Of a DNA stretch of 20,000 bases, positions 494-19,689 are shown in pieces. The notes under the pieces are model-generated. The model did no database searches, was not told the origin of the DNA, and saw nothing but the letters and a program-made list of their open reading frames with translations. The stretch lies in IMG/VR virus record IMGVR_UViG_3300034374_006354. One strand, written 5' to 3'. The stretch is from an uncultured virus (IMG/VR IMGVR_UViG_3300034374_006354). Lineage: Duplodnaviria; Heunggongvirae; Uroviricota; Caudoviricetes. The first letter of the stretch is position 1; every line of letters starts with the position of its first letter. The translations under genes and the position numbers were made by a program.

Positions 494-496
494 AAA

Positions 497-1018
497 TTAC
501 CACCCGCTTCGCCAATATCTACCGCTTCCTCTGAGAATAGGTTTTAAGAATCTACGAATGCTACTAGGAAACAGTGATGCGTTCTGCACCTCTGTAATCT
601 CAATAGATCCCACCTTGATGTTTTCAAACGATCCAGTACGATCCCATAATCCGTCATTATTGATTAAATGATATGCCAATTCATAGGTTGCCCTACGAAT
701 TAATTGGATATCTCTATTAAGACTAGATTCTGTTTCATCGTTATCCGCAGTAAAAGTATAAGTAGAGCTGAATTCATCTTGGACCCCCCGGCTGGTATCT
801 CTGAAAGATCCAGCGCGAGGGAATGCGAGTAATTGGGAGGTATCAGCTACCTTTCCCAAATAATCCATTTCATCCAAGTAAGAAGTAGCAGTAATAAGAG
901 CCTGCTCCTTCAAATCACAATCAGCGTTATCCCATGCTGCAACGTCCATGCGATCATCGAAGTAACTGTCAGCCTCGTTCAAGGTGACATAACAGTTAGT
1001 ACCCTTTACTAGTGCCAT
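497..1018 (-). CDS. Head-tail adaptor (family often annotated DnaT-like ssDNA-binding protein)
   Basis: Family-typical pattern NxYVTLxEADxYF..R..W...KEQALITATxYLD...G.....Q.LAFPR; directly follows the capsid gene; GGAGG RBS. Confidence 0.75.
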   Translation of the reverse strand: MALVKGTNCYVTLNEADSYFDDRMDVAAWDNADCDLKEQALITATSYLDEMDYLGKVADTSQLLAFPRAGSFRDTSRGVQDEFSSTYTFTADNDETESSLNRDIQLIRRATYELAYHLINNDGLWDRTGSFENIKVGSIEITEVQNASLFPSSIRRFLKPILRGSGRYWRSGW

Positions 1019-1040
1019 AGTCAGTTACCTCCTATGATGA

Positions 1041-2228: not shown

Positions 2229-2259
2229 TATTTAGTCTCCAATCGAGAAAAATTAAATG

Positions 2260-2937: not shown

Positions 2938-2948
2938 TTTAAGCTCCT

Positions 2949-2987
2949 TGGGCACGGCCCAGTAATTTCGTTTTAGGTCACAGACCT
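2949..2987 (-). promoter_or_regulatory. Twin triloop hairpins in the scaffold mRNA leader (candidate translational operator)
   Basis: mRNA sense AGGUC-UGU-GACCU (2975-2987) and UGGGC-CGU-GCCCA (2949-2961); the second abuts the AAGGAG SD. Confidence 0.45.
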
Positions 2988-3003
2988 TTAAATATAAAAT
3001 AGG

Positions 3004-6000
3004 TTATGGGCCAATTCCATACCAGTCTTCTCCTTCTAGGATCAATTCCAATATGTCTTCGGCTGTAATACCATCCTTGGGGTTTAAGAGACCCAACTCT
3101 TCTGCTTCCTTAAGAAGTCTTTCATAGGACTCTTTAGAAAGCCCTTGTTTCCTCATTTCCTTGAGGGTACGAAGGAGTGTTTGACCCTCTACCGCATCCG
3201 CATATATTCTACGTAATGCCCATTTAGCATCTGTAGAATCAACGATGTTAGTAAAGAATCCGTCATGAATAGTCGCTGTGTTCACGTTATTCGCTCTACC
3301 CCATAAGTGGAATTTGCGAACAATGGATGCGTCATTCATGTGGTTTCCATTTACTCCTAGACCGCTACGAGCATCAATAATCGATGACCTTCCTAAATAT
3401 TTAGAGTCGGTTATCGCTACCTCGTAGACATTACTCACCCTCCTTCCAGTTACAGGATCGATAAAAGAGATCCTTTCTTGAACTGTAGGACGGTATCGCT
3501 GATACAAGAGTTTACCGTCTACTGTAACCCAAGGTATGTCTACCTTTCCTGATTCAGTAATGTAAACCTCCGCAACTTTTTTCCAATATGAAATAAAGTT
3601 CTCCGTTACCGGAGCAACGTCTTTAAGGTGTTTTGACATAATACGGGCTACCTCTTTAAATTGTTGAGGGCCTACAATGCCACCTTTAACGTTGGTCAGC
3701 TTGGCTACAAAAAGCTCCGAATCAGGGTGAACGTCTCTAGCGTGTGCCAAGAGCTTTTTCCCGATTGGAACATTGTTAGTTATAGAGTAGTTTACTTCTG
3801 TTTTAAGTTCTCTTAGAGACGCCGCCACAGACGACGCATTAGATTTCTCCGCTGCTTTAATCGCATTATCAATGCCTTTATTAAAGTCTCTTAATTCATC
3901 AGCAGTTACTACTACAAAATTTTTCTTAGCAAGAACTTTAGCTAATTTAGCTTCAATAGCCCCTGCTTGTGTTGCTTGTCCAGCACCATAAAAAGCTACC
4001 ATCGATTGACCTTTAGCTGCCTTAGATAAATCACCAAAGTCTAAGTCGTTTCCTAATGGATTTATTTTATGGAAGTCTGGATCAGATAAGGTTCTTTCTG
4101 CTACAATATCATAAAGACGATTCTTTCTTTTTGTTTTTAGAATATTAGAAGCCTGAGCTAACTGCCTATCCCTTGTGCTTAGGGCAATTAACTGAGCTCC
4201 TGAAGCAGAAGCGTCATTTTCGTTTGCTAATTGTGTGAAATAACCTTTTAATTTTCTATTGTCAGTAAAATCACCATCTACATGCTTATAGATACGTGTA
4301 TATTCAAGAGCAAGTCGAGCTAGTTTTGGAACTTCTTCAGGTTCAGTTGCCCTAATAAGAGGATGCTCTAGGAACTCCCGGATCCTACGATCCCTTTGAG
4401 TTTCTGCTAACATCAACTCCCCTATCTCTCTGAGTGCCTTCTCATTTTCTCTAAAGGCTCTTAGTCTTCCCTCATTAGTCAGAGTATTGAAAGGATCTCC
4501 TACGAGTGTTCCTAATTGCAATCGAAGTTCATTAACAGTCTCAGGACGAATTTGTTTAGATACTTTGGTATTTAAGAAGGGTCGTATGAACTCCCCTCCT
4601 GCAGGGTGAAGATACCCTTGGGTATATAATCGTCCTCTACCGTCTATCTGCGCCCAATTCCTCCAAGATTGTTTATTAACGCGATGCCACCTTAAGGACT
4701 GCATCATGCCTGCGCCTGCTTCTCCTCTTTGAAGAACAATCTTTCGAAAACCGTTTAGCTCATCATAGTAGGCAACTCTTCCTCTGGGGTCTCTGAAATA
4801 CATAAGAGATTCAAAGAAAGAGGCAAAATCATCATCAACTTCCCATTCAAAATCCATGGCGTGATTAAGCATTCTAGAGAAATCCCTATCGATCAGGTTT
4901 TGATCATAATTACCAGAGGCTCTTCGTGTTATTACACTAAGCCCTGTTTTACGACCTCTAGAATCAAAGAACGTCTTTGATCCTGCCTTCACAGTAAGCA
5001 TATCCCTTTCTCTTATGATACCAATTCGTCTAGAGTATACTAACTCCTGATATGCCCTCTGCAGTTTGAGCATTTCAGGGTCAATAATCTGGACTTCCCG
5101 GGAGATGGTATCCGCATAAGAGCCTATTCCCGGCCTTCCGGATTCGACATCGATGATGCCTCTACGAGTAACACCTCTCATGCCAATTCTGATTTTGCCT
5201 TGGTCCTTAAGACCATCAAGAATATCTGATCCTACTTTATGATAATTTTTAACTGTTGGTGGTTTAAAGAATATATCGAAGTCGTTAGCCTCCGCTTCAT
5301 AAATCTTCTTACCAATCCTAATAGCTAACAAATCATAGTCTGTAGACTCGCCTGTTGCTATGTCTGCCATTATCTCAGATAATAGCTTAGTACGTTTCTT
5401 TAAGAAATCAGGAGTAAGCTCTCTTTGTATAAAGTCTTCTCTTTTCCTGGCATATATCCATTCAAGATCTAGAATCCTTCTTTTTCTCTCATTACCAGCT
5501 TGTAAAAAGCGAGTTATAAGATCATCTGAAGGTTCCCCATTATATCTCTTTAGAAAAGCCTTCCCAAAAGGTAAACTCTCAATTTCTTTCTTAATTTTCT
5601 TTCTAATAGATTTCTTAGTAGGAATGTAAGCAGGTACTCTTGGGAAATAAAGCCTAAGCGGTGATCTACCTTTAATATATAAATCTCTAGCTAAAGGTAA
5701 TCCATTTTTAACTGCCCACTCATCTACGTATCTCTGATTTGATAATGTCCTGTCCGACAAGTCATCAAAAGAAGTCCATTCTCCTAATATCTGAACTTGA
5801 GCATCTTCTTCTTTATTGCCAAAACGAAATATATTTCCTCGTAATCTAGATCTTCTATCTAGAATTCTAGAAGTGTTCACTACTGAGTTCTTGAGTTCTG
5901 CTTTAAGAACGCTAGAAAGATTTACCCACGGAGTCTTATCTTTTGCGTACCTTTCGAATACAATTCTAAGGTTTTCAGCAACAGCAGTTCTCTGATTGAC

Positions 6001-7455
6001 AGATAATCCTTCATCTTCCAATGAATCTACAAAACCTGTAATCCAAGCTTTCTGTTCTGTCGTTAGTAGTTTAGATCTATTTACAAAGTCTATTCTCTCT
6101 TGGTATACTTCAAAATCAGGACTATAAATCAGTGTTGATTTTTGTTCTCCGGTTAATGGATCAACTCCCACATTCCTTTCATCGAATTGATTATTTGCTC
6201 TCCGTCGAGTAGCACGTTTACCCGCAAGAGATGTACCTCTATAATCCACAACAGCCAAGGCGGAGGAATTATTGTGTGCCTCTGCCCTGTAAAAGACTTT
6301 AAGTTGGTTCTCAACGTCTTTATTACGAATCAAAGTCTGTGGTCTTGAAGCATCCACTCTCAAATTATTAATAGCGGTTGCACTTAAAGCTTTCTGCTTT
6401 ACTGGTGTGAAGTTTGTATTTTTATTATCCAGCCTTCGAAGTGCTTGTAATGAAATAGGTTTCCCACTTGCTGTAGTAAAACTTGTAAGCGGGAGTTGTC
6501 CAGAATCAAAAAGATCTACTTTCTGTATATCTCCTTGAAAATGGCGAACCTTAGTTTCTCTAGGTTGCCTTGTGAGCCATTGTCCATAGGTTTCCCTACT
6601 TGGCCCAATACCATCGAACTTTTTAATATTAGTTTGTTTAATAGCTTTAAGAGCTTTCTTTTTTACGTCAGGGGAAGTACTAGCTAAGAGCTCATCATAA
6701 GACTTAACAACAGGTACTAGTGTGCTACGACACCTCCAGTGTAAAGGAGGAACAAAGCGGAGGTCATCTAGGTCGTAGATTTCCCCATCGTGATGAGCAC
6801 AAATGGCTGATGTACGATTATCCAATACTGCGGTAAAGCGCATGCCCTTAAGAATTGCTCTATTCTCTTGGAATGAAGCTAATTGAGCTGTAGTTTGCGT
6901 CTTAGTTACGGCAGTTCTCACTAATGCGGATGCTTGGGCTTCGGTCAATCTTGTTGTTTTTATAACCGAGCGGACTAGCTGTTTGTTGTCCCACCCTTCC
7001 CGCAAGCCTTTTGTAATAGTGGCTTGAATGCGCTTAAGTTCGTTAGCGCCGAGACCTTGGATACGCCTGCTTAGTGTTCCTTCCCCTCTGACGTTAGCAC
7101 CTACGATTTCCTCAAGTACTTTAGTAGCAGCAGGTCTGCGGATTACCGCCCATTGACCTAAGCTTTTATTGAGGTTATTAGTGCTAAAATCGGTTTCTAC
7201 CAACCCAAAATCTTGCATTTGGGAGGTTACATTTACATCTAATTCTTTAGAGAATCGACTAACCTCCTGTTTGATTTCAGGCATGTGTTGTACCGCAGTA
7301 CCTTTCGTTAAGTCTTTCCCCTCTAATAATTTAGTCAAACGGGTTCTATGTTTACGTATAGTACGTTTCGTATCCGTTTGAACACGATCCTCGTACATAC
7401 GTGTCATAGCAGTATGATCAACTTGACGATCGTAAATATCATCATTGATTGACAT
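3004..7455 (-). CDS. MuF/SPP1-gp7 minor head protein fused to a T7-type single-subunit DNA-directed RNA polymerase
   Basis: N-terminus: AVLDNRTSAICAHHDG...PPLHWRCRSTLVP and TYGQWLTRQP (MuF/gp7). C-terminus: DGRGRLY (T7 DWRGRVY), motif A NDASASGAQLIALSTRD (T7 FDGSCSGIQHFSAMLRD), motif B KGQSMVAFYG (T7 KRSVMTLAYG), WVTVDGKLLYQRY (T7 WVTPDGFPVWQEY), NGNHMNDA (T7 NFVHSQDG), motif C IHDGFFT (T7 IHDSFGT). One uninterrupted ORF between portal and scaffold. Confidence 0.93.
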   Translation of the reverse strand: MSINDDIYDRQVDHTAMTRMYEDRVQTDTKRTIRKHRTRLTKLLEGKDLTKGTAVQHMPEIKQEVSRFSKELDVNVTSQMQDFGLVETDFSTNNLNKSLGQWAVIRRPAATKVLEEIVGANVRGEGTLSRRIQGLGANELKRIQATITKGLREGWDNKQLVRSVIKTTRLTEAQASALVRTAVTKTQTTAQLASFQENRAILKGMRFTAVLDNRTSAICAHHDGEIYDLDDLRFVPPLHWRCRSTLVPVVKSYDELLASTSPDVKKKALKAIKQTNIKKFDGIGPSRETYGQWLTRQPRETKVRHFQGDIQKVDLFDSGQLPLTSFTTASGKPISLQALRRLDNKNTNFTPVKQKALSATAINNLRVDASRPQTLIRNKDVENQLKVFYRAEAHNNSSALAVVDYRGTSLAGKRATRRRANNQFDERNVGVDPLTGEQKSTLIYSPDFEVYQERIDFVNRSKLLTTEQKAWITGFVDSLEDEGLSVNQRTAVAENLRIVFERYAKDKTPWVNLSSVLKAELKNSVVNTSRILDRRSRLRGNIFRFGNKEEDAQVQILGEWTSFDDLSDRTLSNQRYVDEWAVKNGLPLARDLYIKGRSPLRLYFPRVPAYIPTKKSIRKKIKKEIESLPFGKAFLKRYNGEPSDDLITRFLQAGNERKRRILDLEWIYARKREDFIQRELTPDFLKKRTKLLSEIMADIATGESTDYDLLAIRIGKKIYEAEANDFDIFFKPPTVKNYHKVGSDILDGLKDQGKIRIGMRGVTRRGIIDVESGRPGIGSYADTISREVQIIDPEMLKLQRAYQELVYSRRIGIIRERDMLTVKAGSKTFFDSRGRKTGLSVITRRASGNYDQNLIDRDFSRMLNHAMDFEWEVDDDFASFFESLMYFRDPRGRVAYYDELNGFRKIVLQRGEAGAGMMQSLRWHRVNKQSWRNWAQIDGRGRLYTQGYLHPAGGEFIRPFLNTKVSKQIRPETVNELRLQLGTLVGDPFNTLTNEGRLRAFRENEKALREIGELMLAETQRDRRIREFLEHPLIRATEPEEVPKLARLALEYTRIYKHVDGDFTDNRKLKGYFTQLANENDASASGAQLIALSTRDRQLAQASNILKTKRKNRLYDIVAERTLSDPDFHKINPLGNDLDFGDLSKAAKGQSMVAFYGAGQATQAGAIEAKLAKVLAKKNFVVVTADELRDFNKGIDNAIKAAEKSNASSVAASLRELKTEVNYSITNNVPIGKKLLAHARDVHPDSELFVAKLTNVKGGIVGPQQFKEVARIMSKHLKDVAPVTENFISYWKKVAEVYITESGKVDIPWVTVDGKLLYQRYRPTVQERISFIDPVTGRRVSNVYEVAITDSKYLGRSSIIDARSGLGVNGNHMNDASIVRKFHLWGRANNVNTATIHDGFFTNIVDSTDAKWALRRIYADAVEGQTLLRTLKEMRKQGLSKESYERLLKEAEELGLLNPKDGITAEDILELILEGEDWYGIGP

Positions 7456-9557: not shown

Positions 9558-10898
9558 TTAAAATGTGTATGATTGTCTTGATCTTTTCTTAGTCCCTGCT
9601 GTTACAGGGAACAAGAATTCTGAAGCGTATCTTACACCGTCTGAATGGTGTTCTACGCCTTCTGATTTATCGATCATAGCAGAATCTGGATTATTTTCTT
9701 TCCAGACAGTTCTTTCCATTGATCTAATAGTATTCTTACATCTTGGATGAAATAGCATTCGTACCTCACCAGCTGCTGTTTTAAGCATCCTGTTTACTGA
9801 TGCAACAGAATCTACAATAGGTGGGTTCTTGTTTCTTGCCCTAGTCTCGAAGTTAAAGCTTTGCAGAATAGAGAAGTCAGTTCTTCCTACCGCTGCAGAA
9901 GACTTTCTGTTACGGCCTGTAGGGTCAGGATAACAAATAATCTTATGACCCTTATCTCCATATTGGGCTTTAAGCCTTTTACCTAAAGTTTCTGTATCGG
10001 GATGACCCATAAAGTCCTCTAAGAAGTGCATTTGACCTCCTCTCAATGCAAACAAAGAGGTGGCCATAATACCTACGTTGAAGTCAATACACGCATGAAC
10101 ATCTTCTCCCTCTTCAAAGTAGGGGATAGTATTCGTTACATGATCACGTCTATTAAAGTTATAGAACAGGTTGTTACCTGATTCATCAAAGGACGCTTCA
10201 TATTCCCTCTTAAACTGGAGGGGATCCATTGTGTGTAAATCCCGCTCAATTTCTTCTGGATCAAGGTAGGGACTATCTTTGTATGTAAAATGGTAACTTC
10301 CCCATCGATCGTCGACGGATTCGTTATTGTATAAGTCATAAAAATAATCTTTACCTTTGGGCGTACTAATAATGAGGGATCGTCCTGGTGAAGGAGCACC
10401 TAATGCTCTCGCCCGTTCTGGTGACCATCTAGTAGCTACACAAGGCCTAATCACGGATTCCCATGACTCCCTAAATGAACTACCTGCCCCACCCCAAGAG
10501 GTTACCTCATCGAGCACAACAAAATATTGACCTGAGCCCCTGAGTCGTTCGGACGCTTCATAAGACCATAGTTTCAATATAACGTTATTAGGGAACCAGA
10601 ATGTTCCTGAGTGCATACTACACTTATCTGCCCAATCTTCCATCCCAAATTGCCAAGCAATCATAGGAAAGTAAATATCTAAAGTTTGTTGGTAAGTAGG
10701 AGCAATGAGAGCCACATTCTTATTAGGAACATCTGCTGGCATATTAACTAAATCTTGTACTGCCAAACAAGCCGCTGCTCCTGCAAGATAACTCTTACCA
10801 AATCCCCGAGAAGCACAACAGACTGCATTCCTGATCCTCTTTTCTACAAAGAGATCATTAATGATCTGCGACTGGCCCGGGTGTAGAGTGATACTCAT
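9558..10898 (-). CDS. terL: Terminase large subunit
   Basis: Walker A ASRGFGKS, LIAPTYQQ, Walker B VVLDE, coupling motif ISTPKG, FKREYEASF, RNase H-like nuclease IDFN...HHSDGVRY. Confidence 0.95.
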   Translation of the reverse strand: MSITLHPGQSQIINDLFVEKRIRNAVCCASRGFGKSYLAGAAACLAVQDLVNMPADVPNKNVALIAPTYQQTLDIYFPMIAWQFGMEDWADKCSMHSGTFWFPNNVILKLWSYEASERLRGSGQYFVVLDEVTSWGGAGSSFRESWESVIRPCVATRWSPERARALGAPSPGRSLIISTPKGKDYFYDLYNNESVDDRWGSYHFTYKDSPYLDPEEIERDLHTMDPLQFKREYEASFDESGNNLFYNFNRRDHVTNTIPYFEEGEDVHACIDFNVGIMATSLFALRGGQMHFLEDFMGHPDTETLGKRLKAQYGDKGHKIICYPDPTGRNRKSSAAVGRTDFSILQSFNFETRARNKNPPIVDSVASVNRMLKTAAGEVRMLFHPRCKNTIRSMERTVWKENNPDSAMIDKSEGVEHHSDGVRYASEFLFPVTAGTKKRSRQSYTF

Positions 10899-11386
10899 TT
10901 CATAAATCTCCTAAAGAGTAACTTGATCCTTCCTTTGAAAGATCTAGTATTCTCAATATCTTCTTTTAATCCGTAATAACCAAGATTAGTATATTCTTCT
11001 GTTGTATACCACAACCATTTCTTTGGATCAAAGCGTTTTGGAATCTCATTAGTACACTTGAGATGCTTCGTAGCTATCTCATAACCAATATATTGTCCGG
11101 GGAAGAACGCTTTATGCTTTCCATCAGAAAAATTATAGCATGAATCCTTGTCATAGAATTCTGAAAGGAGTTCTGATTCCTTTTCCTGACATTCTTGCCG
11201 ACTGCCACGGAAGACAATTTCCCTCTTGAAATGCATCTTTGGATCAGAATAATCCCTCCAGAATTCCCAATTTCTACTAGAGCAGACATAGGAATCATCT
11301 TCGGATCCTTTATGATACCCAATGTATATCTTACCACTAGATTGGTTTGTAAGAATATATACAAAGGAAGTCTGCTTGTTGTCCAT
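10895..11386 (-). CDS. GIY-YIG (Seg-like) free-standing endonuclease
   Basis: VYILTN...GKIYIG motif, YxxSS, conserved E (KESELL) and YN; overlaps the terL start (ATGA). Confidence 0.75.
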   Translation of the reverse strand: MDNKQTSFVYILTNQSSGKIYIGYHKGSEDDSYVCSSRNWEFWRDYSDPKMHFKREIVFRGSRQECQEKESELLSEFYDKDSCYNFSDGKHKAFFPGQYIGYEIATKHLKCTNEIPKRFDPKKWLWYTTEEYTNLGYYGLKEDIENTRSFKGRIKLLFRRFMK

Positions 11387-12119: not shown

Positions 12120-12566
12120 CTACCTGTAGGTTTTCTCAACCCACTTTGCAAACAAAAGAAGTTCCTCTTCTCCCGCTTGGCTTTTCATGGCATTAGCCAA
12201 TCCAGATATGAATTGAATATTTCCACGAATATAACCCTTACTAGGATCAATCCTGTCTAATGTAGGACTTGATCTCCATCCTTCATTATCGGTGTAATTA
12301 CCTACCTTGAGTTTAATACCAAGGATAGGGCATTTAAAATCGTAAGGGAGAATATCTACAAGATCTTGCATAGTAATATCAGCGGGTACTCCCTTCTTTT
12401 CTGCTCGTCTGATACAGTCTTTCTTAGTAGAGTTAAGCCACCTGCATAATGTAGTGTCATTTACAAGATCTTTAAAATGGTTCTCGCAACCAATGCATAC
12501 TTTCCTTTTAGGATTGAAACGTTGGCATACGTTAGCGTCATTATGGCAGACATAGCAGCTAGTCAT
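12120..12566 (-). CDS. HNH/EndoVII-like endonuclease family protein
   Basis: CPILG...SPTLDRIDPSKGYIRGNIQFIS..ANAMK beta-beta-alpha-Me-like signature common in phages; N-terminal Cys cluster. Confidence 0.75.
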   Translation of the reverse strand: MTSCYVCHNDANVCQRFNPKRKVCIGCENHFKDLVNDTTLCRWLNSTKKDCIRRAEKKGVPADITMQDLVDILPYDFKCPILGIKLKVGNYTDNEGWRSSPTLDRIDPSKGYIRGNIQFISGLANAMKSQAGEEELLLFAKWVEKTYR

Positions 12567-12990
12567 TTAGGCTATTCCTTGCTACACCTTTCATTTTCTC
12601 ATAGGTCCTCATACCGCCCAGCCCTAAAAGACCAAGTAGGAGAGGCATCATCCCTGAGATATCAATAGTAGGAAATACAACAGGTACTCCTGCTAATGCA
12701 CAGAGAAAAGTGAGCAGTGGACCTATGAGGAAGTTCATAGCGAATCCGATCCCACACACCCAAACAATAAAAGGACGTCCTCCAGAAACAAATAAGCTAC
12801 TGTGTTTAGCCTCTTCTTTATTAATTTCTAGCTGTGCAAGCCTAATAGCCTGCTCATTAGCTGCTTCAAAGGTTTTAATCTTGAAAGCTAATTCATCTTT
12901 ACTAATTTTTCCATCTTGCCATTGGCGGATAAGGTCACCAACCTCTCCAATGAGGTCTCCACCAAGGACACTTAATATTTTACTTAGCAT
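12559..12990 (-). CDS. 3-TM holin (GTA holin / DUF3154-like)
   Basis: EINKEEAKHSSLFVSGGRPFIVWVCG...LGLGGMRTYEKMKGV matches the family pattern (usually GWRP); hydrophobic C-terminal helices. Confidence 0.8.
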   Translation of the reverse strand: MLSKILSVLGGDLIGEVGDLIRQWQDGKISKDELAFKIKTFEAANEQAIRLAQLEINKEEAKHSSLFVSGGRPFIVWVCGIGFAMNFLIGPLLTFLCALAGVPVVFPTIDISGMMPLLLGLLGLGGMRTYEKMKGVARNSLND

Positions 12991-12991
12991 A

Positions 12992-13630
12992 TTATTTATC
13001 CTTAAAGGCTAGTGCAGCTCCCTTAAGCCTTCCTACAGCAATATTACATCTAGTCATTTCCTTATCAGAAACATGATCTGCTTCATGAGAAGCAAAAGAG
13101 CAATAGGTAACTGCAGTAGCATCTAGTCCTTTAATTTCTTCTGTAGATATATGAAATAAAGCAGCAGATTTAACACCTTCAGCCAGATATACCCTTTTAA
13201 GAGCACAATCTGGCATATCATCTACCTTAAATCTCATACTATTCTTGATAATAATTTCTTTAATCCTAGACCTATAATCATCATCCAATTCGAAGTGGAC
13301 ATAATTAATAGGTACTTGACCTCTTAATCTCATTTGCAGAATAGAGGAGGTCCACTGGGGGTTATATTTACCATTCCAAGCCCTAAATACTAAAAACCGA
13401 TCAAGACTAGTATGTTGCAATATACCCCTAATATCTTCCTCGATATGATCCCATTCCTGTATAAATTCAGCAAAGTCTAAAGCCTTCCTACTAAAATCCA
13501 TTTCTGCTTTAGCTTGAGATAACATAATATTTTGTTGTCGTATTTTTCTTTGCCCTAATAAGGCAGTAATACAGACACCCAAAAAGGTAATACCAGCCAC
13601 AATAATAGCTGTCCAATCCAGTCCTAACAT
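12992..13630 (-). CDS. Membrane-anchored protein, N-terminal TM plus probable GAF-like domain
   Basis: TM about aa 6-26, basic coiled-coil linker, then DRFLVFRAWNG...LAEGVKSAALF pattern; adjacent to the holin. Confidence 0.55.
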   Translation of the reverse strand: MLGLDWTAIIVAGITFLGVCITALLGQRKIRQQNIMLSQAKAEMDFSRKALDFAEFIQEWDHIEEDIRGILQHTSLDRFLVFRAWNGKYNPQWTSSILQMRLRGQVPINYVHFELDDDYRSRIKEIIIKNSMRFKVDDMPDCALKRVYLAEGVKSAALFHISTEEIKGLDATAVTYCSFASHEADHVSDKEMTRCNIAVGRLKGAALAFKDK

Positions 13631-13727
13631 TAGTGTTCCCCTTAGGGATAAGTTGTTTAGGTTTAGTTAATAACATCAACTAGCCTCTTCCTATAGGATT
13701 CCTTAGTAAGCTTCCGCTAAGGGGTTC

Positions 13728-13744
13728 CTATAGGGTCATTAATG
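13728..13744 (-). promoter_or_regulatory. Degenerate phage-RNAP promoter copy CATTAATGACCCTATAG
   Basis: 14/17 match to the copy at 13764-13780, same orientation. Confidence 0.35.
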
Positions 13745-13763
13745 ATATACCGGGGTCTATTTT

Positions 13764-13780
13764 CTATAGGGTGATCAATT
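13764..13780 (-). promoter_or_regulatory. Candidate phage-RNAP promoter AATTGATCACCCTATAG
   Basis: Repeated 17-bp motif with T7/SP6-like CTATAG end; points into the lysis/packaging/structural operon. Confidence 0.7.
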
Positions 13781-13801
13781 CATTCCCGGCAGTTTTTAGT
13801 T

Positions 13802-13818
13802 CTTTAATGTGATCAATT
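13802..13818 (-). promoter_or_regulatory. Candidate phage-RNAP promoter AATTGATCACATTAAAG
   Basis: Same motif with T3-like TAAAG end; identical to the copy at 14183-14199. Confidence 0.7.
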
Positions 13819-14152
13819 AGTTACTCCCATCAACAACCTGTTTAAGATAATCCATTGCTTCCTTACCTTTTAATCGCTTTTGTCGTTGTTTTCTGAGCCT
13901 TTCATTGTGACAATCTTTACAGATTTTGTTTCTTCCAAGGGGTTTACGCTTATTAAGCCCAAAGTTTGAAGCATCCTTCTCTGTGTGACAAGCAGAGCAC
14001 GTAATGGGATCACTTGTTGGTTCGTAGTTGAATTTCTTGGCATACTCCCTCTGACACTCTAAACACTTATAGGAATAACCTCTCTTCTTGGAGCTATCCA
14101 TAGGAAATCTATATTCCGGTTTCGTTTCTTTACAAGTAGAACATTTTAACAT
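13817..14152 (-). CDS. Zinc-finger protein with two CxxC..K....F......G....CxxC repeats (no nuclease domain)
   Basis: CSTC/CLEC and CSAC/CKDC pairs; GGAGG RBS; same repeat type as the N-terminus of the HNH at 16230. Confidence 0.7.
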   Translation of the reverse strand: MLKCSTCKETKPEYRFPMDSSKKRGYSYKCLECQREYAKKFNYEPTSDPITCSACHTEKDASNFGLNKRKPLGRNKICKDCHNERLRKQRQKRLKGKEAMDYLKQVVDGSN

Positions 14153-14182
14153 ATTTCCTCCATATTAAATTATTCTATTCTT

Positions 14183-14199
14183 CTTTAATGTGATCAATT
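14183..14199 (-). promoter_or_regulatory. Candidate phage-RNAP promoter AATTGATCACATTAAAG
   Basis: Motif ends about 30 nt before the ATG of the first gene of the leftward operon, with a GGAGG RBS in between. Confidence 0.7.
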
Positions 14200-14323
14200 T
14201 GATCCTTCCAAAAAATTTTTTACTAATTCCCTATAGACCTTCGCTCAGTCGCTATCGCCTACGCTCTATGCTCCTTCGCTTAAAACCCTCATTTATTTGA
14301 TAGCGCTACGCTTTTGCTCAAGG

Positions 14324-14340
14324 TATTGAGCTCTCTATAG
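14324..14340 (+). promoter_or_regulatory. Degenerate phage-RNAP promoter TATTGAGCTCTCTATAG
   Basis: 14/17 match to the copy at 16969 and followed by the same GAC; 27 nt upstream of the first plus-strand gene. Confidence 0.5.
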
Positions 14341-14367
14341 GACAAAACTTAAATAAAGGAAGCTTAA

Positions 14368-14592
14368 ATGATAATCCCAGTAATCGCTGGTAGCTACCAA
14401 GAATTCCTATACTGGAGAAAAGGACAACCCGTAGACGACTATAGGTATATCCCTGTTAACACCATAGACCCCTTAAGAGGCACTAGGTTCACTGAAATAA
14501 AAAAGATAGGCACTTATCTAGACAGATGGAGCCTTGATACCCTACGTGAATTAGAACTATTAGAAATTAATATATCATCAAGATATAAATAA
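14368..14592 (+). CDS. Hypothetical protein
   Basis: 74 aa, AAGGA RBS, first gene of a compact plus-strand cluster. Confidence 0.7.
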   Translation: MIIPVIAGSYQEFLYWRKGQPVDDYRYIPVNTIDPLRGTRFTEIKKIGTYLDRWSLDTLRELELLEINISSRYK

Positions 14593-14604
14593 AGGAGCCC
14601 TTAA

Positions 14605-14922
14605 ATGAAATCATTAGTGATCATAGCGGTCCTACTAATGATTCCATTAAGGACCCTAGGTGACATAGAGATAGACCTCTCTATCCCTAGATATAATGAT
14701 TATGATGTAATTAAATCAGGCAAATTAGAATGTCGACAAGCAGTTACTTCACACAAAAAAGTAGAGATTGGTATAGTAGATGGTAAGATATACTCTAGAT
14801 TAATCATTCCTATTGGCAAAAGACCCAAGAGGTTTGATTGTAGTAAATTATATGACTTAGTCATTAAAGAACTAGAATTGAGACTTTTAAGGTCTTATGA
14901 TGCAAAGGAATTAACTCAATGA
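14605..14922 (+). CDS. Hypothetical exported protein (signal peptide, two Cys)
   Basis: AAGGAG RBS; MKSLVIIAVLLMIPL hydrophobic N-terminus. Confidence 0.7.
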   Translation: MKSLVIIAVLLMIPLRTLGDIEIDLSIPRYNDYDVIKSGKLECRQAVTSHKKVEIGIVDGKIYSRLIIPIGKRPKRFDCSKLYDLVIKELELRLLRSYDAKELTQ

Positions 14923-15176
14923 ATATTAAGGAAATAGCTACCATTGTGATAGGTACTGTGTCCATTACTTTGTCCATTTTAGGTTGGATGGAGTTAAGAT
15001 TTAGCACAAAACAAGAAGCTGAGTTCAGACACATAGAAACCCAAATGGGTATTAATGATATTAGATTAAGGTCATTCGAAGAAAGGGGCATTGATAACCT
15101 TGATGAAACAGAGAAGAGAATATATGAAGCCCTTAAAGATACACAAGCTAATTTAGCAGAAAGGAGGGCTAAATAA
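14919..15176 (+). CDS. Single-TM coiled-coil membrane protein
   Basis: ATGA overlap with the previous gene; N-terminal TM followed by a charged helical region. Confidence 0.7.
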   Translation: MNIKEIATIVIGTVSITLSILGWMELRFSTKQEAEFRHIETQMGINDIRLRSFEERGIDNLDETEKRIYEALKDTQANLAERRAK

Positions 15177-15478
15177 TGAGAAGCATTAAGGACATGTATA
15201 GCGGCACAAGAGTTATTCTCTTAGGGCTAGTGGGTATTCTATCCTTGCTATATATGTTTAACGTATATGCCCACCGTAACCAACATCATAATGATTGGCA
15301 TGTGTATAGCAATACCATGAATGGTTATATGAGTATCATCAATACCTCTAATCATTGGCATGTGTGTACCATTGGTGTGTACCAATTTGAACTACCACCT
15401 GCTAGACTCAACCAATATGGACAGGTAGTACCTTCAGAATCAAGGAGGTATCCCGCAGGGCCATGGGGGTGTTATTAA
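15176..15478 (+). CDS. Hypothetical membrane-anchored or exported protein
   Basis: TAATG coupling, GGAGG RBS, hydrophobic segment ending in VYA. Confidence 0.65.
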   Translation: MRSIKDMYSGTRVILLGLVGILSLLYMFNVYAHRNQHHNDWHVYSNTMNGYMSIINTSNHWHVCTIGVYQFELPPARLNQYGQVVPSESRRYPAGPWGCY

Positions 15479-15565
15479 GGGGTCGTCTAGCGATTCCAAG
15501 AGATACAAGATAAGAATAGAAATGGTCGGGACTGTTTCTAGTAAGGGGTCATCTAACGACTCCAA
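15476..15565. repeat. 24-bp imperfect direct repeat (15476-15499 / 15542-15565)
   Basis: TAAGGGGTCgTCTAgCGAtTCCAA versus TAAGGGGTCaTCTAaCGAcTCCAA, 3 mismatches. Confidence 0.8.
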
Positions 15566-15652
15566 TGACCCTTAGTGGTTCCTTAACTTCGTGATGGGCG
15601 GAGCTAGTGGAATCATTAGGGGTCTTTTTACGGGGAGTCATATAGGGTTCTT

Positions 15653-15710
15653 TAGTGGTCTTTGGTGGGGGTATATGGTTCCCTAGTGGTCTTTGGTGGG
15701 GATATATGGT
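15653..15710. repeat. 27-bp direct repeat, period 31
   Basis: TAGTGGTCTTTGGTGGGG(G/A)TATATGGT at 15653-15679 and 15684-15710, 1 mismatch. Confidence 0.9.
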
Positions 15711-16172
15711 ATATGATGGGGTGTATTCGAACCCTGCTATATGTATGAAATCAAATTCATTCGATCCCCTAATGCAAACTTGGTCTCTCCCTACACAAGA
15801 TCAATATGCGAGAAAAAAGAATCAAAGAGGGACCATATGCCCCCACTATGCCTCCCACATACCTCACCACTCGGGAATCACCCGGCATCCACGGTGATAC
15901 CATGTAAGATTATGTAGGTTTCAAGAGTGCTCCTCTCTGCCCCTCTCTGGGACATTAAGAAAAGCTATACCTAGGCCATGGGTAGGCCATTAATTGTCCT
16001 TAGTGGTCATATATGGTTCACTGGTGGTCATTAGTGGTGAGGGTTTTAATTAGAGAGTGATTTAATGATTTATTAATGGTTATCCGTGGACTAACTGATA
16101 TTTCTCTTTATAAGCAAAGATTGAGTTTTTACACGCAATAATATGCATAGTTATTTATATTTGTTAAATAGA

Positions 16173-16200
16173 TTGATTTTACATTACCCCCTCTTATAAT
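16173..16200 (+). promoter_or_regulatory. Possible sigma70 promoter TTGATT-N16-TATAAT
   Basis: Perfect -10, 4/6 -35, AT-rich upstream; overlaps the phage-type motif at 16198. Confidence 0.4.
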
Positions 16201-16214
16201 TGATCACTCTAAAG
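16198..16214 (+). promoter_or_regulatory. Candidate phage-RNAP promoter AATTGATCACTCTAAAG
   Basis: Repeated motif immediately upstream of the HNH gene. Confidence 0.7.
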
Positions 16215-16229
16215 AACGAACAATAATAA

Positions 16230-16922
16230 GTGATTGATATGTATAAAGTATGTAAGACTTGTGACTTAACTAAACAGGAAAAAAGCTTTCACAAAAATAT
16301 TAAAGGAAGAGACGGTTTACGTAGCTCCTGTAAGGATTGTGAAAGAGAAAAGCGAAAAAGCAAACTACAGTTAGTAGAGAGAAAATGTAATACTTGTAAG
16401 AGAATAAAACCCCTAACAGAGGAATACTTTATATCTTGTGATTCTCCTTCTCACTTTAACTTTACGAGAAAATGTTTAGAGTGTATTAAAACATGTAACA
16501 GTTGTGGAATTAAAAAAGAGTTAAAAGATTTTCCTAAAAATAACTTTCATAAATCAGGATATGCTAACCGTTGCAAATCTTGTCAATTAGAATATCTAGA
16601 TAAATATGGTGCAAAGAAATCTACAGCTAAAAAGAGTAAATATAGAAGAGAACGCAATTCTCTATTTATCTCTAGGGTTAAGATGAGATTAGGCTGTCAA
16701 TGTTGTGGATATAAAGAGCATCCTTCTGCTTTAGATTTCGATCATATAGACCCTTCTACTAAGAACTCTAATGATTACTCCGCTATGAATAGTAATTGGA
16801 GTAGGAAAAGGATAAAAGAAGAGATGAGGAAATGTAGAGTATTGTGTGCTAATTGTCATCGTATTCACTCTCATGGACATCACTACTCTAAATACCCCGG
16901 TTTAAATACACCTACCATTTAA
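16230..16922 (+). CDS. HNH endonuclease with N-terminal Zn-finger repeats
   Basis: Three CxxC...K....F...CxxC repeats, then CQCCG...LDFDHIDP..K...EEMRKCRVLCANCHRIH. Start may be GTG 16230 or ATG 16239. Confidence 0.85.
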   Translation: MIDMYKVCKTCDLTKQEKSFHKNIKGRDGLRSSCKDCEREKRKSKLQLVERKCNTCKRIKPLTEEYFISCDSPSHFNFTRKCLECIKTCNSCGIKKELKDFPKNNFHKSGYANRCKSCQLEYLDKYGAKKSTAKKSKYRRERNSLFISRVKMRLGCQCCGYKEHPSALDFDHIDPSTKNSNDYSAMNSNWSRKRIKEEMRKCRVLCANCHRIHSHGHHYSKYPGLNTPTI

Positions 16923-16968
16923 GATCATTATGGACCACGTTAGAACCCCTTATAAATCAATAAGATAA

Positions 16969-16985
16969 AATTGATCACTCTATAG
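16969..16985 (+). promoter_or_regulatory. Candidate phage-RNAP promoter AATTGATCACTCTATAG
   Basis: Repeated motif ending CTATAG-G as in T7; followed by AT-rich tandem repeats. Confidence 0.7.
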
Positions 16986-17006
16986 GACTAGTCCCCGGGG
17001 GAACCT

Positions 17007-17117
17007 ATTAATATATCATTAATATATCATTAATGATCATTAATATTCATTAATATATCATATATGATCCTTCATTATTCCTTCATATATCCCTTCATTA
17101 TTCCTTCATTATTCCTT
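17007..17117. repeat. AT-rich tandem ~11-mers: (ATATATCATTA)n then (CCTTCATTATT)n
   Basis: Read directly: about five imperfect ATATATCATTA-type units followed by about four CCTTCATTATT-type units. Confidence 0.85.
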
Positions 17118-17231
17118 TAAGAATCCCTGGATGATCCTATAGGACTCTGTTAGTTAGGTTATCATTAATATAACCCTAATAAAGAAACCCCTTAATTAAC
17201 AAACAAAACAACAAACAAAAGAGTAATTAGT

Positions 17232-17588
17232 ATGTATAAATATATGACTATAGTCCTATTAGGGTTAATCCTAGTAGGGTGTGAGAAGATAGAGGTGGAA
17301 CCTGTTACCACTACAGTTAAAAAGAAACAGGAAGGATATGTTATACCAGATAGATTTAGTTGTGAGGCATATAGAGTAGATGAGGAGAATATAGAGAGAT
17401 CATGTGGGATGCATGATAGTAAAGGATGTGTATATATTAAGGAAAGTAGGAGTGTATATAAGGGTATAGATTTGGTAGAGGCACATAAGTATGATATGCC
17501 TCATATGACTATATTCTTTACTACTAGAGGTACTCTTAGACATGAGTTTGATCATATTACTGATGGTCCTAAACATGTAGGTGAGTAA
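17232..17588 (+). CDS. Lipoprotein with HExxH motif
   Basis: Signal peptide with lipobox LVG-C; LRHEFDH near the C-terminus. Confidence 0.7.
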   Translation: MYKYMTIVLLGLILVGCEKIEVEPVTTTVKKKQEGYVIPDRFSCEAYRVDEENIERSCGMHDSKGCVYIKESRSVYKGIDLVEAHKYDMPHMTIFFTTRGTLRHEFDHITDGPKHVGE

Positions 17589-17608
17589 AAAAAAAAGATA
17601 TATAAATG

Positions 17609-17670
17609 ACCCCCTATGACAATAGGTATAGACCCAATTAAGGGAATACCTAAGTCATAGGGGGTTTTTT
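17609..17670 (+). terminator. Intrinsic terminator between convergent gene blocks
   Basis: 12-bp stem ACCCCCTATGAC (17609-17620) / GTCATAGGGGGT (17654-17665), inner stem TAGGTAT/ATACCTA, T-run on +; the A-run near 17587-17596 suggests possible use on the - strand too. Confidence 0.75.
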
Positions 17671-17818
17671 ATTGATCTTCATCATAGGGATAGTCTATAG
17701 GAGTATCCTCTGATAATAGTAGATAAACTATCATAATACAGAGAACTATACCTGTTATGATTATAAATGCCATACCTAGTAAGGCTAGTATTGTTACTAT
17801 TGTTAATAGGGTATTCAT
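17669..17818 (-). CDS. Small membrane protein (49 aa)
   Basis: Not in the ORF track. MNTLLTIVTILALLGMAFIIITGIVLCIMIVYLLLSEDTPIDYPYDEDQ, GAGG RBS, ends at the terminator. Confidence 0.6.
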   Translation of the reverse strand: MNTLLTIVTILALLGMAFIIITGIVLCIMIVYLLLSEDTPIDYPYDEDQ

Positions 17819-19073: not shown

Positions 19074-19310
19074 TTATCCTACCTTTGATTTATCACTACA
19101 CCATGTATTAACTGCTTCCATCCACTCTTCATCCCCTAGGGTACAGGAATACATTAATTTATTACCGTTTACATCTACACCATCATTAGCTATATCACAT
19201 AAGAGATAGTGAGCTCTCTCTAAGAGTTCCTCATACTCTTTCATTTTATTGACCATATAGAGAGGATCTACTGAGGTTCTCATTAGGTCTTCATACTCAT
19301 CATCTATCAT
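19074..19310 (-). CDS. Hypothetical acidic protein
   Basis: Start moved to ATG 19310 (MIDDEYED), which has a GGAG RBS and a short overlap with the upstream gene. Confidence 0.6.
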   Translation of the reverse strand: MIDDEYEDLMRTSVDPLYMVNKMKEYEELLERAHYLLCDIANDGVDVNGNKLMYSCTLGDEEWMEAVNTWCSDKSKVG

Positions 19311-19689
19311 TATCTTTCTCCAGTTCCTCCAGCAGTGCGTCAGCGCCTTTAACGGCCCCTGCATAGGTCATGCCTTGATGGGCTACCAAGGTTTTTGATA
19401 TCTCGTACCGCCACCACTCACGGGTCTGGCCTGTTTTGGAGAGGATGGGGTCATTGGTCGCCACACCTTTACCAACCAGTTTTCCACTTGCGTTGAGCGC
19501 CTGTTGCAGCGCATCTTGTTCGTGACCTGATAGCTGTTCAGGCATGTCCGGTTCAATGTCCGGTTCAATGTCCGGTTTGTCTGCCTGCTCGTCTGTCCAG
19601 TTATAATCAAATGCGTTTCTGTGCAGTCCACTATGGAACTGTCCTCGCACACACTGAAAACCCTTAAGTCTCGATTCACACTGGCTCAT
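19300..19689 (-). CDS. Hypothetical protein with N-terminal C..C...H.G.H Zn-ribbon-like motif and PDIE repeats
   Basis: 129 aa, GGAGG RBS, ATGA-coupled; 12-bp coding repeat at 19544-19577. Confidence 0.65.
   Translation of the reverse strand: MSQCESRLKGFQCVRGQFHSGLHRNAFDYNWTDEQADKPDIEPDIEPDMPEQLSGHEQDALQQALNASGKLVGKGVATNDPILSKTGQTREWWRYEISKTLVAHQGMTYAGAVKGADALLEELEKDNDR

What the first reader, a model, noticed from the sequence alone, without database searches (positions are those of the whole stretch)
13728..16985. Candidate cognate promoter family AATTGATCACnnTAwAG for the fused RNAP
Seen: five copies with invariant AATTGATCAC and TA(T/A)AG: minus strand 13764-13780, 13802-13818, 14183-14199; plus strand 16198-16214, 16969-16985. 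Two 14/17 variants lie at 13728-13744 (-) and 14324-14340 (+). All are essentially intergenic and oriented with the downstream genes; by eye I found none in 1-13.6 kb or beyond 17 kb. Established: T7 TAATACGACTCACTATA/G, T3 AATTAACCCTCACTAAA/G and SP6 ATTTAGGTGACACTATA/G share this geometry (AT-rich -17 to -13, specificity block, TATA/TAAA at -4 to -1, G at +1, purine-rich start). Inference: this is the promoter of the MuF-RNAP with a new specificity block (GATCAC), i.e. a possible orthogonal polymerase-promoter pair.
Basis: partly seen in the sequence, partly recalled or inferred. Interest (0 to 1): 0.85.

Follow-up and report, generated by a model that had tools for sequence, protein, structure and literature searches.

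The report
T7-like phage promoters, different polymerase

Summary
Five exact copies of AATTGATCACnnTAwAG lie at the stated places. None is expected by chance. All are intergenic and point at the next gene.

Relatives carry the same kind of element. The TA(A/T)AG end is conserved, and the upstream block changes from lineage to lineage. It is therefore a promoter family for a phage single-subunit RNA polymerase.

The family encodes two such polymerases:
- the MuF-fused one in this window;
- a free-standing T7-like one, which scores far better against the Pfam RNA polymerase model (E 8.5e-83 against about 1e-6).

The free-standing enzyme's specificity loop changes with the promoter block. The fused enzyme's equivalent loop does not. 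Two fused enzymes that are 92% identical, with identical loops, sit in phages with different blocks.

A second element, conserved across the whole family, lies upstream of the free-standing polymerase gene: AAAAAGTGAGAAAA-N5-GYATCTATAATG. It is the better candidate target of the fused enzyme.

The promoter reading is supported. The attribution to the fused polymerase is probably wrong. This is a new member of a known kind of promoter.

The parts
13802..13818 (-). Promoter copy AATTGATCACATTAAAG (TAAAG subtype). It is the first of a tandem pair facing the lysis/packaging/head operon. The predicted +1 is G at 13802.
   Evidence: Exact match. Weight-matrix score 28.4. Relatives G003 (473/694) and L175 (10253/10017) have the same tandem of a TAAAG copy followed by a TATAG copy upstream of the late module.
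13764..13780 (-). Promoter copy AATTGATCACCCTATAG (TATAG subtype). The predicted +1 is G at 13764, 134 nt before ORF 12992-13630(-).
   Evidence: score 27.9.
14183..14199 (-). Promoter copy AATTGATCACATTAAAG, 31 nt upstream of the ATG of ORF 13817-14152(-), with a GGAGG in between.
   Evidence: score 32.4. The ORF matches endonuclease VII / HNH PHROGs.
16198..16214 (+). Promoter copy AATTGATCACTCTAAAG, immediately upstream of an HNH endonuclease ORF at 16230-16922(+).
   Evidence: score 30.2. phrog_2255 HNH endonuclease, E 1.5e-38.
16969..16985 (+). Promoter copy AATTGATCACTCTATAG. A 247-nt leader holding two 11-nt repeat arrays follows, then ORF 17232-17588(+).
   Evidence: score 30.0. An identical 17-mer lies about 435 nt upstream of the free-standing RNAP gene in L112/L221.
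14324..14340 (+). Possible weak variant TATTGAGCTCTCTATAG, 28 nt upstream of the first of four small + strand ORFs (14368-15478).
   Evidence: 3 mismatches and score 12.6. Sites beginning TATTGATCAC occur upstream of the free-standing RNAP gene in L223 and L224. By count it cannot be told from chance.
13728..13744 (-). Degenerate variant CATTAATGACCCTATAG. It shares only the CCTATAGGA end.
   Evidence: 3 mismatches and score below 10. It belongs to a local excess of CTATAGG: 13 strand matches against 3.98 expected.
12992..13630 (-). First ORF of the leftward late operon served by the tandem promoters. The operon continues with holin, endonuclease, PhoH, homing endonuclease, TerL, portal, MuF-RNAP, scaffold and major head protein.
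3004..7455 (-). MuF-RNAP fusion of 1483 aa, given as context. It is a full-length T7-like polymerase fused behind a MuF head domain. It is probably not the reader of this motif.
   Evidence: Pfam MuF E 2.3e-15 and RNA_pol E 3.6e-7. Model of residues 430-1483: pLDDT 78.3, pTM 0.70. Best fold matches are T7 RNAP chains, E 6e-18, about 1000 aligned columns. Loop comparison.

Best explanation
**What it is.** AATTGATCAC-N-Y-TA(A/T)AG-(A/G)A is the middle/late promoter of this phage lineage. It is read by a phage-encoded, free-standing T7-like single-subunit RNA polymerase whose gene lies outside the 20-kb window.

**How it most likely works, by analogy with T7-type enzymes (inferred).**
1. The polymerase binds the duplex upstream block, about -16 to -5, with its specificity loop.
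2. It melts the TA(A/T)A at -4 to -1.
3. It starts at the G, giving transcripts that begin GAA or GGA.

**What the copies drive in this window.**
- A tandem pair drives the lysis-packaging-head operon, which includes the MuF-RNAP gene.
- Two copies each drive a free-standing HNH / endonuclease VII-like gene.
- One copy drives a small rightward gene behind a repeat-rich leader.

**Role of the MuF-fused polymerase.** It is made late from these promoters. It is inferred to be packaged and to start the next infection from a different, family-wide conserved early element that lies upstream of the free-standing polymerase gene.

**Shown.** The motif, its placement, its lineage-specific counterparts in relatives, the existence of two polymerases, and the loop-block covariation.

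**Inferred.** The start site, which enzyme binds, and the packaging of the fusion protein.
For: **1. The motif is real and well placed.** There are 5 exact copies against 0.00 expected. All are intergenic and co-oriented with the next gene.

**2. Relatives hold the same architecture with other blocks.**
- DSS3_VP1 has AATAGGGTGCGTTAAAG as its most repeated 12-mer family. Of 13 sites at up to 3 mismatches, 12 are on the coding strand.
- Other lineages have ACCAGGGGACG[CT]TAAAG, AATAAGTCTGGTTAAAG, AATACC[GA]CCTT.TAAAG, AATACCTGACGTTAAAG and more.
- 21 distinct type-A sites were collected across relatives at about 65-71% protein identity.

**3. There are two polymerases.**
- DSS3_VP1 has gp108 (MuF-RNAP) and gp080 (free-standing RNAP).
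- The free-standing enzyme scores Pfam RNA_pol E 8.5e-83, against 2.4e-6 and 3.6e-7 for the fusions.
- It was found in the 2 most complete of 5 records searched.
- It is present in a type-A phage: G003 and L223 overlap at 99.97% over 6159 bp.
- L112/L169 hold it together with an exact copy of the window's 17-mer.

**4. The free-standing enzyme's loop covaries with the block.** The stretch aligned to T7 RNAP residues about 739-770 differs between promoter classes.
- Within one subfamily, loops with KVQLQ go with ...GACG[TC]TAAAG, while KVRIQ and KVNIQ go with ...GACCTTAAAG.
- Type A against type A: loop 89-96% identical, the rest 76-88%.
- Type A against type B: loop 52-59%, the rest 67-69%.
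- L229 against L231, which have different blocks: 93% outside the loop, 77% inside.

**5. The MuF-RNAP's equivalent loop does not covary.**
- It is nearly invariant across blocks A, B and C.
- The type-B clade is nested inside type-A diversity on the MuF-RNAP tree (quick tree).
- L042 and L046 are 92.2% identical with identical loops. At a homologous site their blocks are ATACCGCCTTA and GTGACACCTTC.

**6. The layout resembles T7.**
- 57 of 75 loci have a lineage-class promoter within 400 nt after the free-standing RNAP gene.
- Promoters precede late genes, including the MuF-RNAP gene in 11 of 43 loci examined.

**7. A separate conserved element exists.**
- 79 sites in 80 loci, all on the gene strand, all upstream of the free-standing RNAP gene and none downstream.
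- It is present in 33 of 36 loci with at least 6 kb of upstream sequence.
- It is absent from the window.
Against: - No transcript ends, binding data or activity data exist for any member. A search for RNA runs listed none.
- The window's own phage is not shown to encode the free-standing RNAP. The window, G002 (29 kb) and the 7-kb record lack it. The link rests on relatives that share the exact motif.
- In the type-A lineage no promoter follows the free-standing RNAP gene (L221-L223 are among the 18 without). One lies about 400 nt upstream of it instead. That would also suit an early promoter read by an injected enzyme.
- The MuF-RNAP is itself a complete T7-like enzyme with a specificity-loop hairpin and the residue aligned to T7 R746. 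Other parts of it could determine specificity.
- L231 and L234 share one promoter block, yet their loops are only 58% identical. Only a few loop positions can matter.
- The promoter classes used for the counts were derived from the same loci.
Confidence: 0.68

Rival explanations
1. One reading: the motif is the cognate promoter of the MuF-fused RNAP. That enzyme, injected or newly made, transcribes from AATTGATCAC promoters.
For: - The fusion carries a complete, apparently active T7-like polymerase. The residues aligned to T7 D537, K631, Y639, H811 and D812 are invariant in 15 of 15 sequences. The best fold matches are T7 RNAP, including the promoter complex 1cez.
- In type-A phages a copy lies about 400 nt upstream of the free-standing RNAP gene, where an early promoter would sit.
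Against: - Its loop equivalent to the T7 specificity loop does not change when the promoter block changes.
- The promoters drive late genes, including its own gene.
- In lineages D, E and F the region between the conserved early element and the free-standing RNAP gene holds no strong lineage-class promoter.
- A far more T7-like enzyme with a hypervariable loop is available.
Confidence: 0.15
2. Both polymerases read the same promoter. The packaged copy starts transcription and the free-standing copy amplifies it.
For: - Both have T7-like architecture and a loop hairpin.
- In the window and the type-A records searched for the type-A motif (window, G002, G003, L221, L223, L224), the only strongly repeated promoter-like motif is type A.
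Against: - The two enzymes are very divergent: Pfam E 1e-83 against 1e-6. Their loops are unrelated in sequence.
- A second, conserved element sits exactly where an early promoter is needed. It is present in type-A phages too: G003 46686 and 47007, L221 near 2008.
Confidence: 0.1
3. It is not a promoter. The TGATCA palindrome is a binding site for a repressor, terminase or methylase, or the copies travel with homing-endonuclease cassettes.
For: - The core holds GATC and the palindrome TGATCA.
- Two of the five copies precede HNH / endonuclease VII-like ORFs.
Against: - The counterparts in relatives occupy the same positions but have non-palindromic blocks, and all keep TA(A/T)AG.
- Strand bias is complete with respect to genes: 12 of 13 sites in DSS3_VP1 are on the coding strand.
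- Flanks outside about 19 nt are unrelated.
- Sigma-70-like matches are not enriched in the region: 19 against 22.6 expected.
Confidence: 0.04

Closest known systems
Promoters of T7-group phages (T7, T3, SP6, K11) read by their single-subunit RNAPs
   Same: - A contiguous element of about 17-19 bp. It has an A/T-rich 5' end, a variable specificity block, TATA or TAAA just before a G, and a purine-rich start.
- It is dispersed in intergenic regions and co-oriented with genes.
- The block co-varies with the polymerase's specificity loop.
- In most lineages the first copy lies just after the polymerase gene.

The consensus sequences of the known phages were not checked by any search.
   Different: - The specificity block is new (TTGATCAC).
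- If +1 is the G, the conserved part starts at -16, one position shorter than the T7-group consensus.
- The phages are not Autographiviridae. They are relatives of Naomviridae roseophages, with a siphovirus-like structural module.
- They carry a second, capsid-fused T7-like polymerase.
Coliphage N4 transcription relay (virion RNAP for early genes, then RNAPII)
   Same: Two phage T7-family polymerases, one encoded among the virion genes and one free. An early promoter class and a later one. The N4 scheme is taken from the abstract of PMC4496689 in the listing.
   Different: - N4's virion enzyme is a protein of about 3500 aa fused to other domains and is said to occur only in N4-like phages (passages of PMC5512222). 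Here the carrier is a MuF head domain.
- The polymerase part matches T7 RNAP best.
- The candidate early element shows no hairpin by eye; this was not tested with a folding tool.
- Packaging of the fusion is inferred, not shown.
P23-45 tape-measure-fused virion RNAP plus non-virion RNAP; phiKZ and AR9 virion and non-virion RNAPs
   Same: A polymerase fused to, or packed with, a virion protein starts a cascade that includes a second phage polymerase. Taken from the abstracts of 10.1101/2022.12.01.518664, PMC10612078 and PMC5312081 in the listing.
   Different: Those enzymes are two-barrel, multisubunit-type polymerases. Both enzymes here are single-subunit T7-type.

Membership tests
T7-type single-subunit RNAP promoter | A contiguous conserved element of about 17-23 bp, repeated in the genome | tested here: met
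   5 exact copies in the window against 0.00 expected. 21 distinct type-A sites in relatives, with conservation limited to about 19 nt.
T7-type single-subunit RNAP promoter | TATA or TAAA immediately before an initiating G, kept across relatives while the upstream block varies | tested here: met
   TA(A/T)AG is invariant in all lineage classes found. That the G is +1 was not tested.
T7-type single-subunit RNAP promoter | Intergenic and co-oriented with downstream genes | tested here: met
   5 of 5 in the window. 12 of 13 sites in DSS3_VP1 are on the coding strand. G005 has 5 of 5 and G006 6 of 6 on the gene strand.
T7-type single-subunit RNAP promoter | A T7-like RNAP encoded by the same genome | tested here: inconclusive
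   The window encodes only the MuF-RNAP fusion. The free-standing RNAP is shown in a type-A phage (G003 + L223) and in L112/L169, which hold the exact 17-mer. It is not shown on a contig joined to this window.
T7-type single-subunit RNAP promoter | The specificity block co-varies with the polymerase's specificity loop | tested here: met
   Met for the free-standing RNAP. Not met for the MuF-RNAP loop.
T7-type single-subunit RNAP promoter | Polymerase-dependent initiation at the site | not testable with these tools
   No RNA run was listed. There are no biochemical data.
N4 virion-RNAP hairpin promoter | A short inverted repeat forming a hairpin with a 3-nt loop on single-stranded template (feature recalled) | tested here: not met
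   The only symmetry is the loop-less palindrome TGATCA. The blocks in relatives are not palindromic.
Bacterial sigma-70 promoter | -35 and -10 hexamers at 16-18 bp spacing | tested here: not met
   Consensus matches in 12800-17800 number 19 against 22.6 expected. Two of the 19 weak matches take the TTGATC of a copy as their -35-like hexamer (14197-14169 minus strand; 16200-16227 plus strand; 9 of 12 each), and a third (16173-16200) ends at the start of the 16198 copy, but the conserved motif itself does not have the two-hexamer form.

The most novel reading that the evidence does not exclude
The whole phage family runs a two-polymerase relay that does not need the host polymerase.
1. A complete T7-like RNAP fused behind a MuF head domain is packed in the capsid and ejected.
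2. It reads a roughly 30-nt early element that is conserved across the family: AAAAAGTGAGAAAA-N5-GYATCTATAATG.
3. That element switches on a second, free T7-like RNAP.
4. The free enzyme's hypervariable specificity loop and its promoter block (here AATTGATCAC) have co-diversified into ten or more natural, mutually orthogonal polymerase-promoter pairs.

In the dU-DNA members (DSS3_VP1), this would explain how a genome without thymine is first transcribed.
Probability: 0.4. Interest if true: 0.8.

Novelty: new member of a known kind. Interest (0 to 1): 0.55.

Why it matters
The promoter itself is an ordinary kind of thing, a T7-type phage promoter with a new specificity block. Three points make it more useful than one more consensus sequence.

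1. The comparative set gives a natural series of at least ten promoter blocks, each paired with the loop sequence of a small (about 730 aa) T7-like polymerase. Some pairs differ at single loop positions. That is raw material for orthogonal expression systems and for reading the recognition code.

2. It corrects an attractive but probably wrong pairing. Anyone who cloned the MuF-RNAP with this promoter would likely see nothing.

3. It exposes a two-polymerase organisation: a MuF-fused T7-like enzyme plus a conserved candidate early promoter. The searches made here did not find this in print:
-;
- no hit for 'RNA polymerase' in the text of PMC8323127 or PMC12697855;
- passages of PMC5512222.

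Tried and rejected
- **Own assembly.** It is not held. I worked from the nearest records by handle instead.
- **RNA evidence.** No RNA holder was listed for window 12900-17600.
- **Nucleotide search of phage records with 13600-17200.** It gave only a 47-nt chance-like match to coliphages.
- **Unrestricted 9-mer seed listing across loci.** It was too noisy to use. It was replaced by clustering anchored on TA(A/T)AG.
- **A supposed second class in G006 (TTAGCACTTGTTAAAGC).** I set it aside. The copies sit in a triplet-periodic repeat at the contig ends and look like a coding or terminal repeat. This was not followed up.
- **A cluster that first appeared as '...TCATTATAGATGC' on the strand opposite the genes.** It proved to be the reverse complement of the conserved gene-strand element ending TCTATAATG.
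- **Exact-pattern scan of viral contigs.** Most of the 122 stretches are single chance matches. Only L107, L111, L112, L142, L169, L174 and L175 proved related.
- **Bridging the window's right end to other genome parts.** Using ORF 19300-19689 I found only a 4.1-kb contig at 60% identity.
- **EBPR siphovirus 1.** The record is partial and shows no replication module, so it could not serve as a case with a MuF-RNAP only.
- **Rfam scan of 13400-17800.** Nothing reached threshold.
- **Earlier notes of this scan.** None for this genome and none by words.

Full report
**Observation**

The pattern AATTGATCACNNTAWAG occurs exactly five times in the window, at the coordinates given. None is expected in 200 dinucleotide-preserving shuffles.

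About two such matches are expected by chance, so those two are not established by count.

All five exact copies lie between ORFs and point at the next ORF. Only about 19 nt are shared, AATTGATCAC-N-Y-TA(A/T)AG-(A/G)A, and the flanks are unrelated.

A sixth exact copy lies at G002:21532. G002 is a 29-kb contig that overlaps window 1-7293 and continues into the tail genes.

**Genes in the window**

The minus strand from 13.6 kb down to 1 carries, in order:
- a 212-aa ORF, a holin and an endonuclease;
- PhoH, a homing endonuclease and TerL;
- a portal protein;
- the 1483-aa MuF-RNAP fusion;
- scaffold and major head protein.

The promoters serve these genes:
- The tandem pair at 13802 and 13764 faces the operon listed above.
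- The copies at 14183(-) and 16198(+) each precede an endonuclease VII / HNH-type ORF.
- The copy at 16969(+) precedes a 247-nt leader with two 11-nt repeat arrays, then a 118-aa ORF.

**It is a promoter family**

The nearest isolated phages are the roseophages DSS3_VP1 and DSS3_PM1 (Naomviridae). Their fusion protein is 44.5% identical to the window's over its full length.

In DSS3_VP1 the most repeated 12-mers form AATAGGGTGCGTTAAAGAGGGG. Of 13 sites at up to 3 mismatches, 12 are on the strand that carries all the genes.

Metagenomic relatives show the same design with other blocks:
- ACCAGGGGACG[CT]TAAAG;
- AATAAGTCTGGTTAAAG;
- AATACC[GA]CCTT.TAAAG;
- A[AG]TGAC[GA]CCTTCTAAAG;
- AATACCTGACG[TC]TAAAG;
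- ATACCTGACCTTAAAG.

The window's own block recurs in relatives whose fusion protein is only 65-71% identical. That gave 21 distinct sites, 14 with TAAAG and 7 with TATAG.

At homologous positions the flanks stay alike while the block is replaced (L042:505 against L046:7269). A conserved TA(A/T)AG, a lineage-specific block, strict gene-strand orientation and intergenic placement together are the signature of a phage single-subunit RNAP promoter. Sigma-70-like matches are not enriched in the region. The palindrome TGATCA is not kept in relatives, which argues against a dimeric binding site.

**Which polymerase reads it**

The family has two.

- DSS3_VP1 encodes gp108, the MuF-RNAP fusion (annotated 'head morphogenesis').
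- It also encodes gp080, a 732-aa free-standing RNAP.
- The free-standing enzyme matches Pfam RNA_pol at E 8.5e-83. The fusions match at about 1e-6.
- It was found in the two most complete of five related records.
- It is present in a type-A phage. G003, which carries a fusion protein 69% identical to the window's and three exact type-A promoters plus one near copy (AATCGATCAC..., 35867), overlaps L223 at 99.97% over 6159 bp. L223 carries the free-standing RNAP.
- Contigs L112/L169 carry this RNAP together with a 17-mer identical to the window's 16969 copy.

Both enzymes align to T7 RNAP across the stretch that holds its specificity loop. That residues 746, 748, 756 and 758 of T7 read the promoter is recalled, not tested here.

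*The free-standing enzyme's loop is hypervariable and tracks the promoter found next to its gene.*
- In the subfamily with ...KRTELKYG..LKVxxQVWE.., loops with Q at x go with ...GACG[TC]TAAAG in all loci listed. Loops with R or N go with ...GACCTTAAAG.
- Type-A loops ([QV]RVRVRFC[RK]SN[RK]GKGIQLTIQPKE) are 89-96% identical to each other. The rest of the protein is 76-88% identical.
- Against type B (VEVRVQFCNKKKKGLQLVIQPEE) the loop drops to 52-59%. The rest is 67-69%.
- L229 and L231 have different blocks. They are 93% identical outside the loop and 77% inside.

*The fused enzyme's equivalent loop (VQERIxFxDPVTGRxVSNIYE) behaves the opposite way.*
- It is almost invariant across blocks A, B and C.
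- No residue in it separates A from B.
- On a tree of the fusion proteins the type-B clade is nested inside type-A diversity (a quick IQ-TREE run, because the careful search did not finish).
- L042 and L046 are 92.2% identical with identical loops. Their phages use ATACCGCCTTA and GTGACACCTTC.

*The layout agrees.*
- 57 of 75 loci have a lineage-class promoter within 400 nt after the free-standing RNAP gene.
- Promoters precede late genes. In 11 of 43 loci examined a type-A copy lies 157-176 nt before the MuF-RNAP gene itself. The window's own copy lacks this one.

**A second, conserved element**

While clustering sites I found a roughly 30-nt element on the gene strand: AAAAAGTGAGAAAA-N5-G[CT]ATCTATAATG.

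- With a loose pattern there are 79 sites in the 80 loci that hold the free-standing RNAP.
- All 79 are on the gene strand and upstream of that gene. None is downstream.
- There are one to four copies per locus.
- The element is present in 33 of 36 loci with at least 6 kb of upstream sequence.
- Examples: DSS3_VP1 at 35793 and 36240, G003 at 46686 and 47007, G005 at 453, and a variant in G006 at 69811.
- It has a perfect TATAAT but no -35 hexamer at 16-18 bp. Its GTGAGAAAA part is conserved across phages whose polymerases are only about 45% identical.
- It is absent from the window.

A conserved element and a conserved loop fit each other. I therefore take it as the candidate early promoter of the injected MuF-RNAP. 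Host RNA polymerase remains possible. This part is inference.

**The fused polymerase**

A model of residues 430-1483, built from an alignment of 15 sequences, has pLDDT 78.3 and pTM 0.70.

Its best fold matches are T7 RNAP chains. The E-value is 6e-18 over about 1000 aligned columns, and the promoter complex 1cez ranks fourth. Mitochondrial RNAPs follow.

The residues aligned to the catalytic residues of T7 are invariant. It is therefore a complete, probably active T7-like enzyme.

**Evidence against my reading**

- There is no transcript or binding evidence at all.
- The window's own phage is not shown to hold the free-standing RNAP on a joined contig.
- In type-A phages no promoter follows that gene. 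One lies about 400 nt before it instead: L221:4014, L223:8334 and L224:8576. That suits self-amplification, but it would also suit an early promoter.
- L231 and L234 share a block although their loops are 58% identical.
- The class patterns used for the counts were drawn from the same loci.

**Comparison with what is known**

In working it is a T7-group promoter. It meets four of the six membership features tested; whether the same genome encodes the polymerase is inconclusive, and initiation itself cannot be tested here. The block is new.

The two-polymerase arrangement resembles the N4 relay. The carrier is different (a MuF domain), and both enzymes are T7-like.

In the papers I could search I found no description of this promoter family or of a MuF-RNAP fusion:
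- searches;
- the term search found no 'RNA polymerase', 'MuF' or 'RNAP' in PMC8323127, and the one found no 'RNA polymerase', 'RNAP', 'promoter' or 'transcription' in PMC12697855;
- passages of PMC5512222 say N4-like virion RNAPs occur only in N4-like phages.

I treated it as a lead and tested it here.

**Verdict**

| Question | Result |
|---|---|
| Observation | Confirmed |
| Promoter reading | Supported, about 0.9 |
| Attribution to the fused polymerase | Probably wrong |
| Free-standing RNAP as reader | About 0.7 |
| Novelty | New member of a known kind |
| Interest | Moderate |

The interest is raised by the natural series of loop-block pairs and by the unreported relay.

Noticed in passing
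Relatives: L081 (DSS3_VP1) 35793 and 36240; G003 46686 and 47007; L221 about 1989-2016; 79 sites in L221-L300: A family-wide conserved element of about 30 nt, AAAAAGTGAGAAAA-N5-G[CT]ATCTATAATG. It occurs in one to four tandem copies, always on the gene strand and always upstream of the free-standing RNAP gene. It is a candidate early promoter. It is absent from the window.
   Followed up: partly
L112 5571-5856 and 5851-6315: The type-A free-standing RNAP gene is interrupted by a group I intron (Rfam RF00028, 86.5 bits, E 2e-22) that carries an HNH endonuclease ORF (Pfam HNH_3, E 3.3e-10).
   Followed up: partly
window 15473-16040: A stretch of about 750 nt without a convincing ORF holds several repeats: a 31-nt unit repeated 2.3 times (15640-15710), a fourth related copy at 15990-16040, and a 27-nt direct repeat (15473-15499 and 15539-15565). 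There was no Rfam match. Its function is unknown; an origin of replication or a non-coding RNA is possible.
   Followed up: partly
window 17007-17117: Two adjacent arrays of 11-nt repeats, ATTAATATATC x5.2 and TCCTTCATTAT x4.5, lie inside the 247-nt leader downstream of the 16969 promoter. They look like iterons.
   Followed up: no
window 13690-17701: A local excess of CTATAGG, often as the palindrome CCTATAGG. There are 13 strand matches against 3.98 expected, and 12 of the 13 lie in this 4-kb stretch. Several have no upstream block (13690, 14230, 17136).
   Followed up: partly
window 10895-11386, 12120-12566, 13817-14152, 16230-16922: Four free-standing homing-endonuclease-like ORFs (HNH / endonuclease VII types) in 6 kb. 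Two of them have their own copy of the promoter.
   Followed up: no
window 13745-13763 and 16986-17000; G002 from 21549; G003 from 711; L175 below 10000: In 5 of 7 TATAG-subtype copies the transcribed start holds CCCCGG or CCTCCGG within about 15 nt. This may be a 5' stem or a regulatory site. L107 and L221 lack it.
   Followed up: no
G006 34-1855 and 80139-80335: The ends of this 80-kb relative repeat each other over about 200 nt. They hold copies of TTAGCACTTGTTAAAGC in a triplet-periodic context. This could be a terminal repeat, an assembly overlap or a coding repeat.
   Followed up: no
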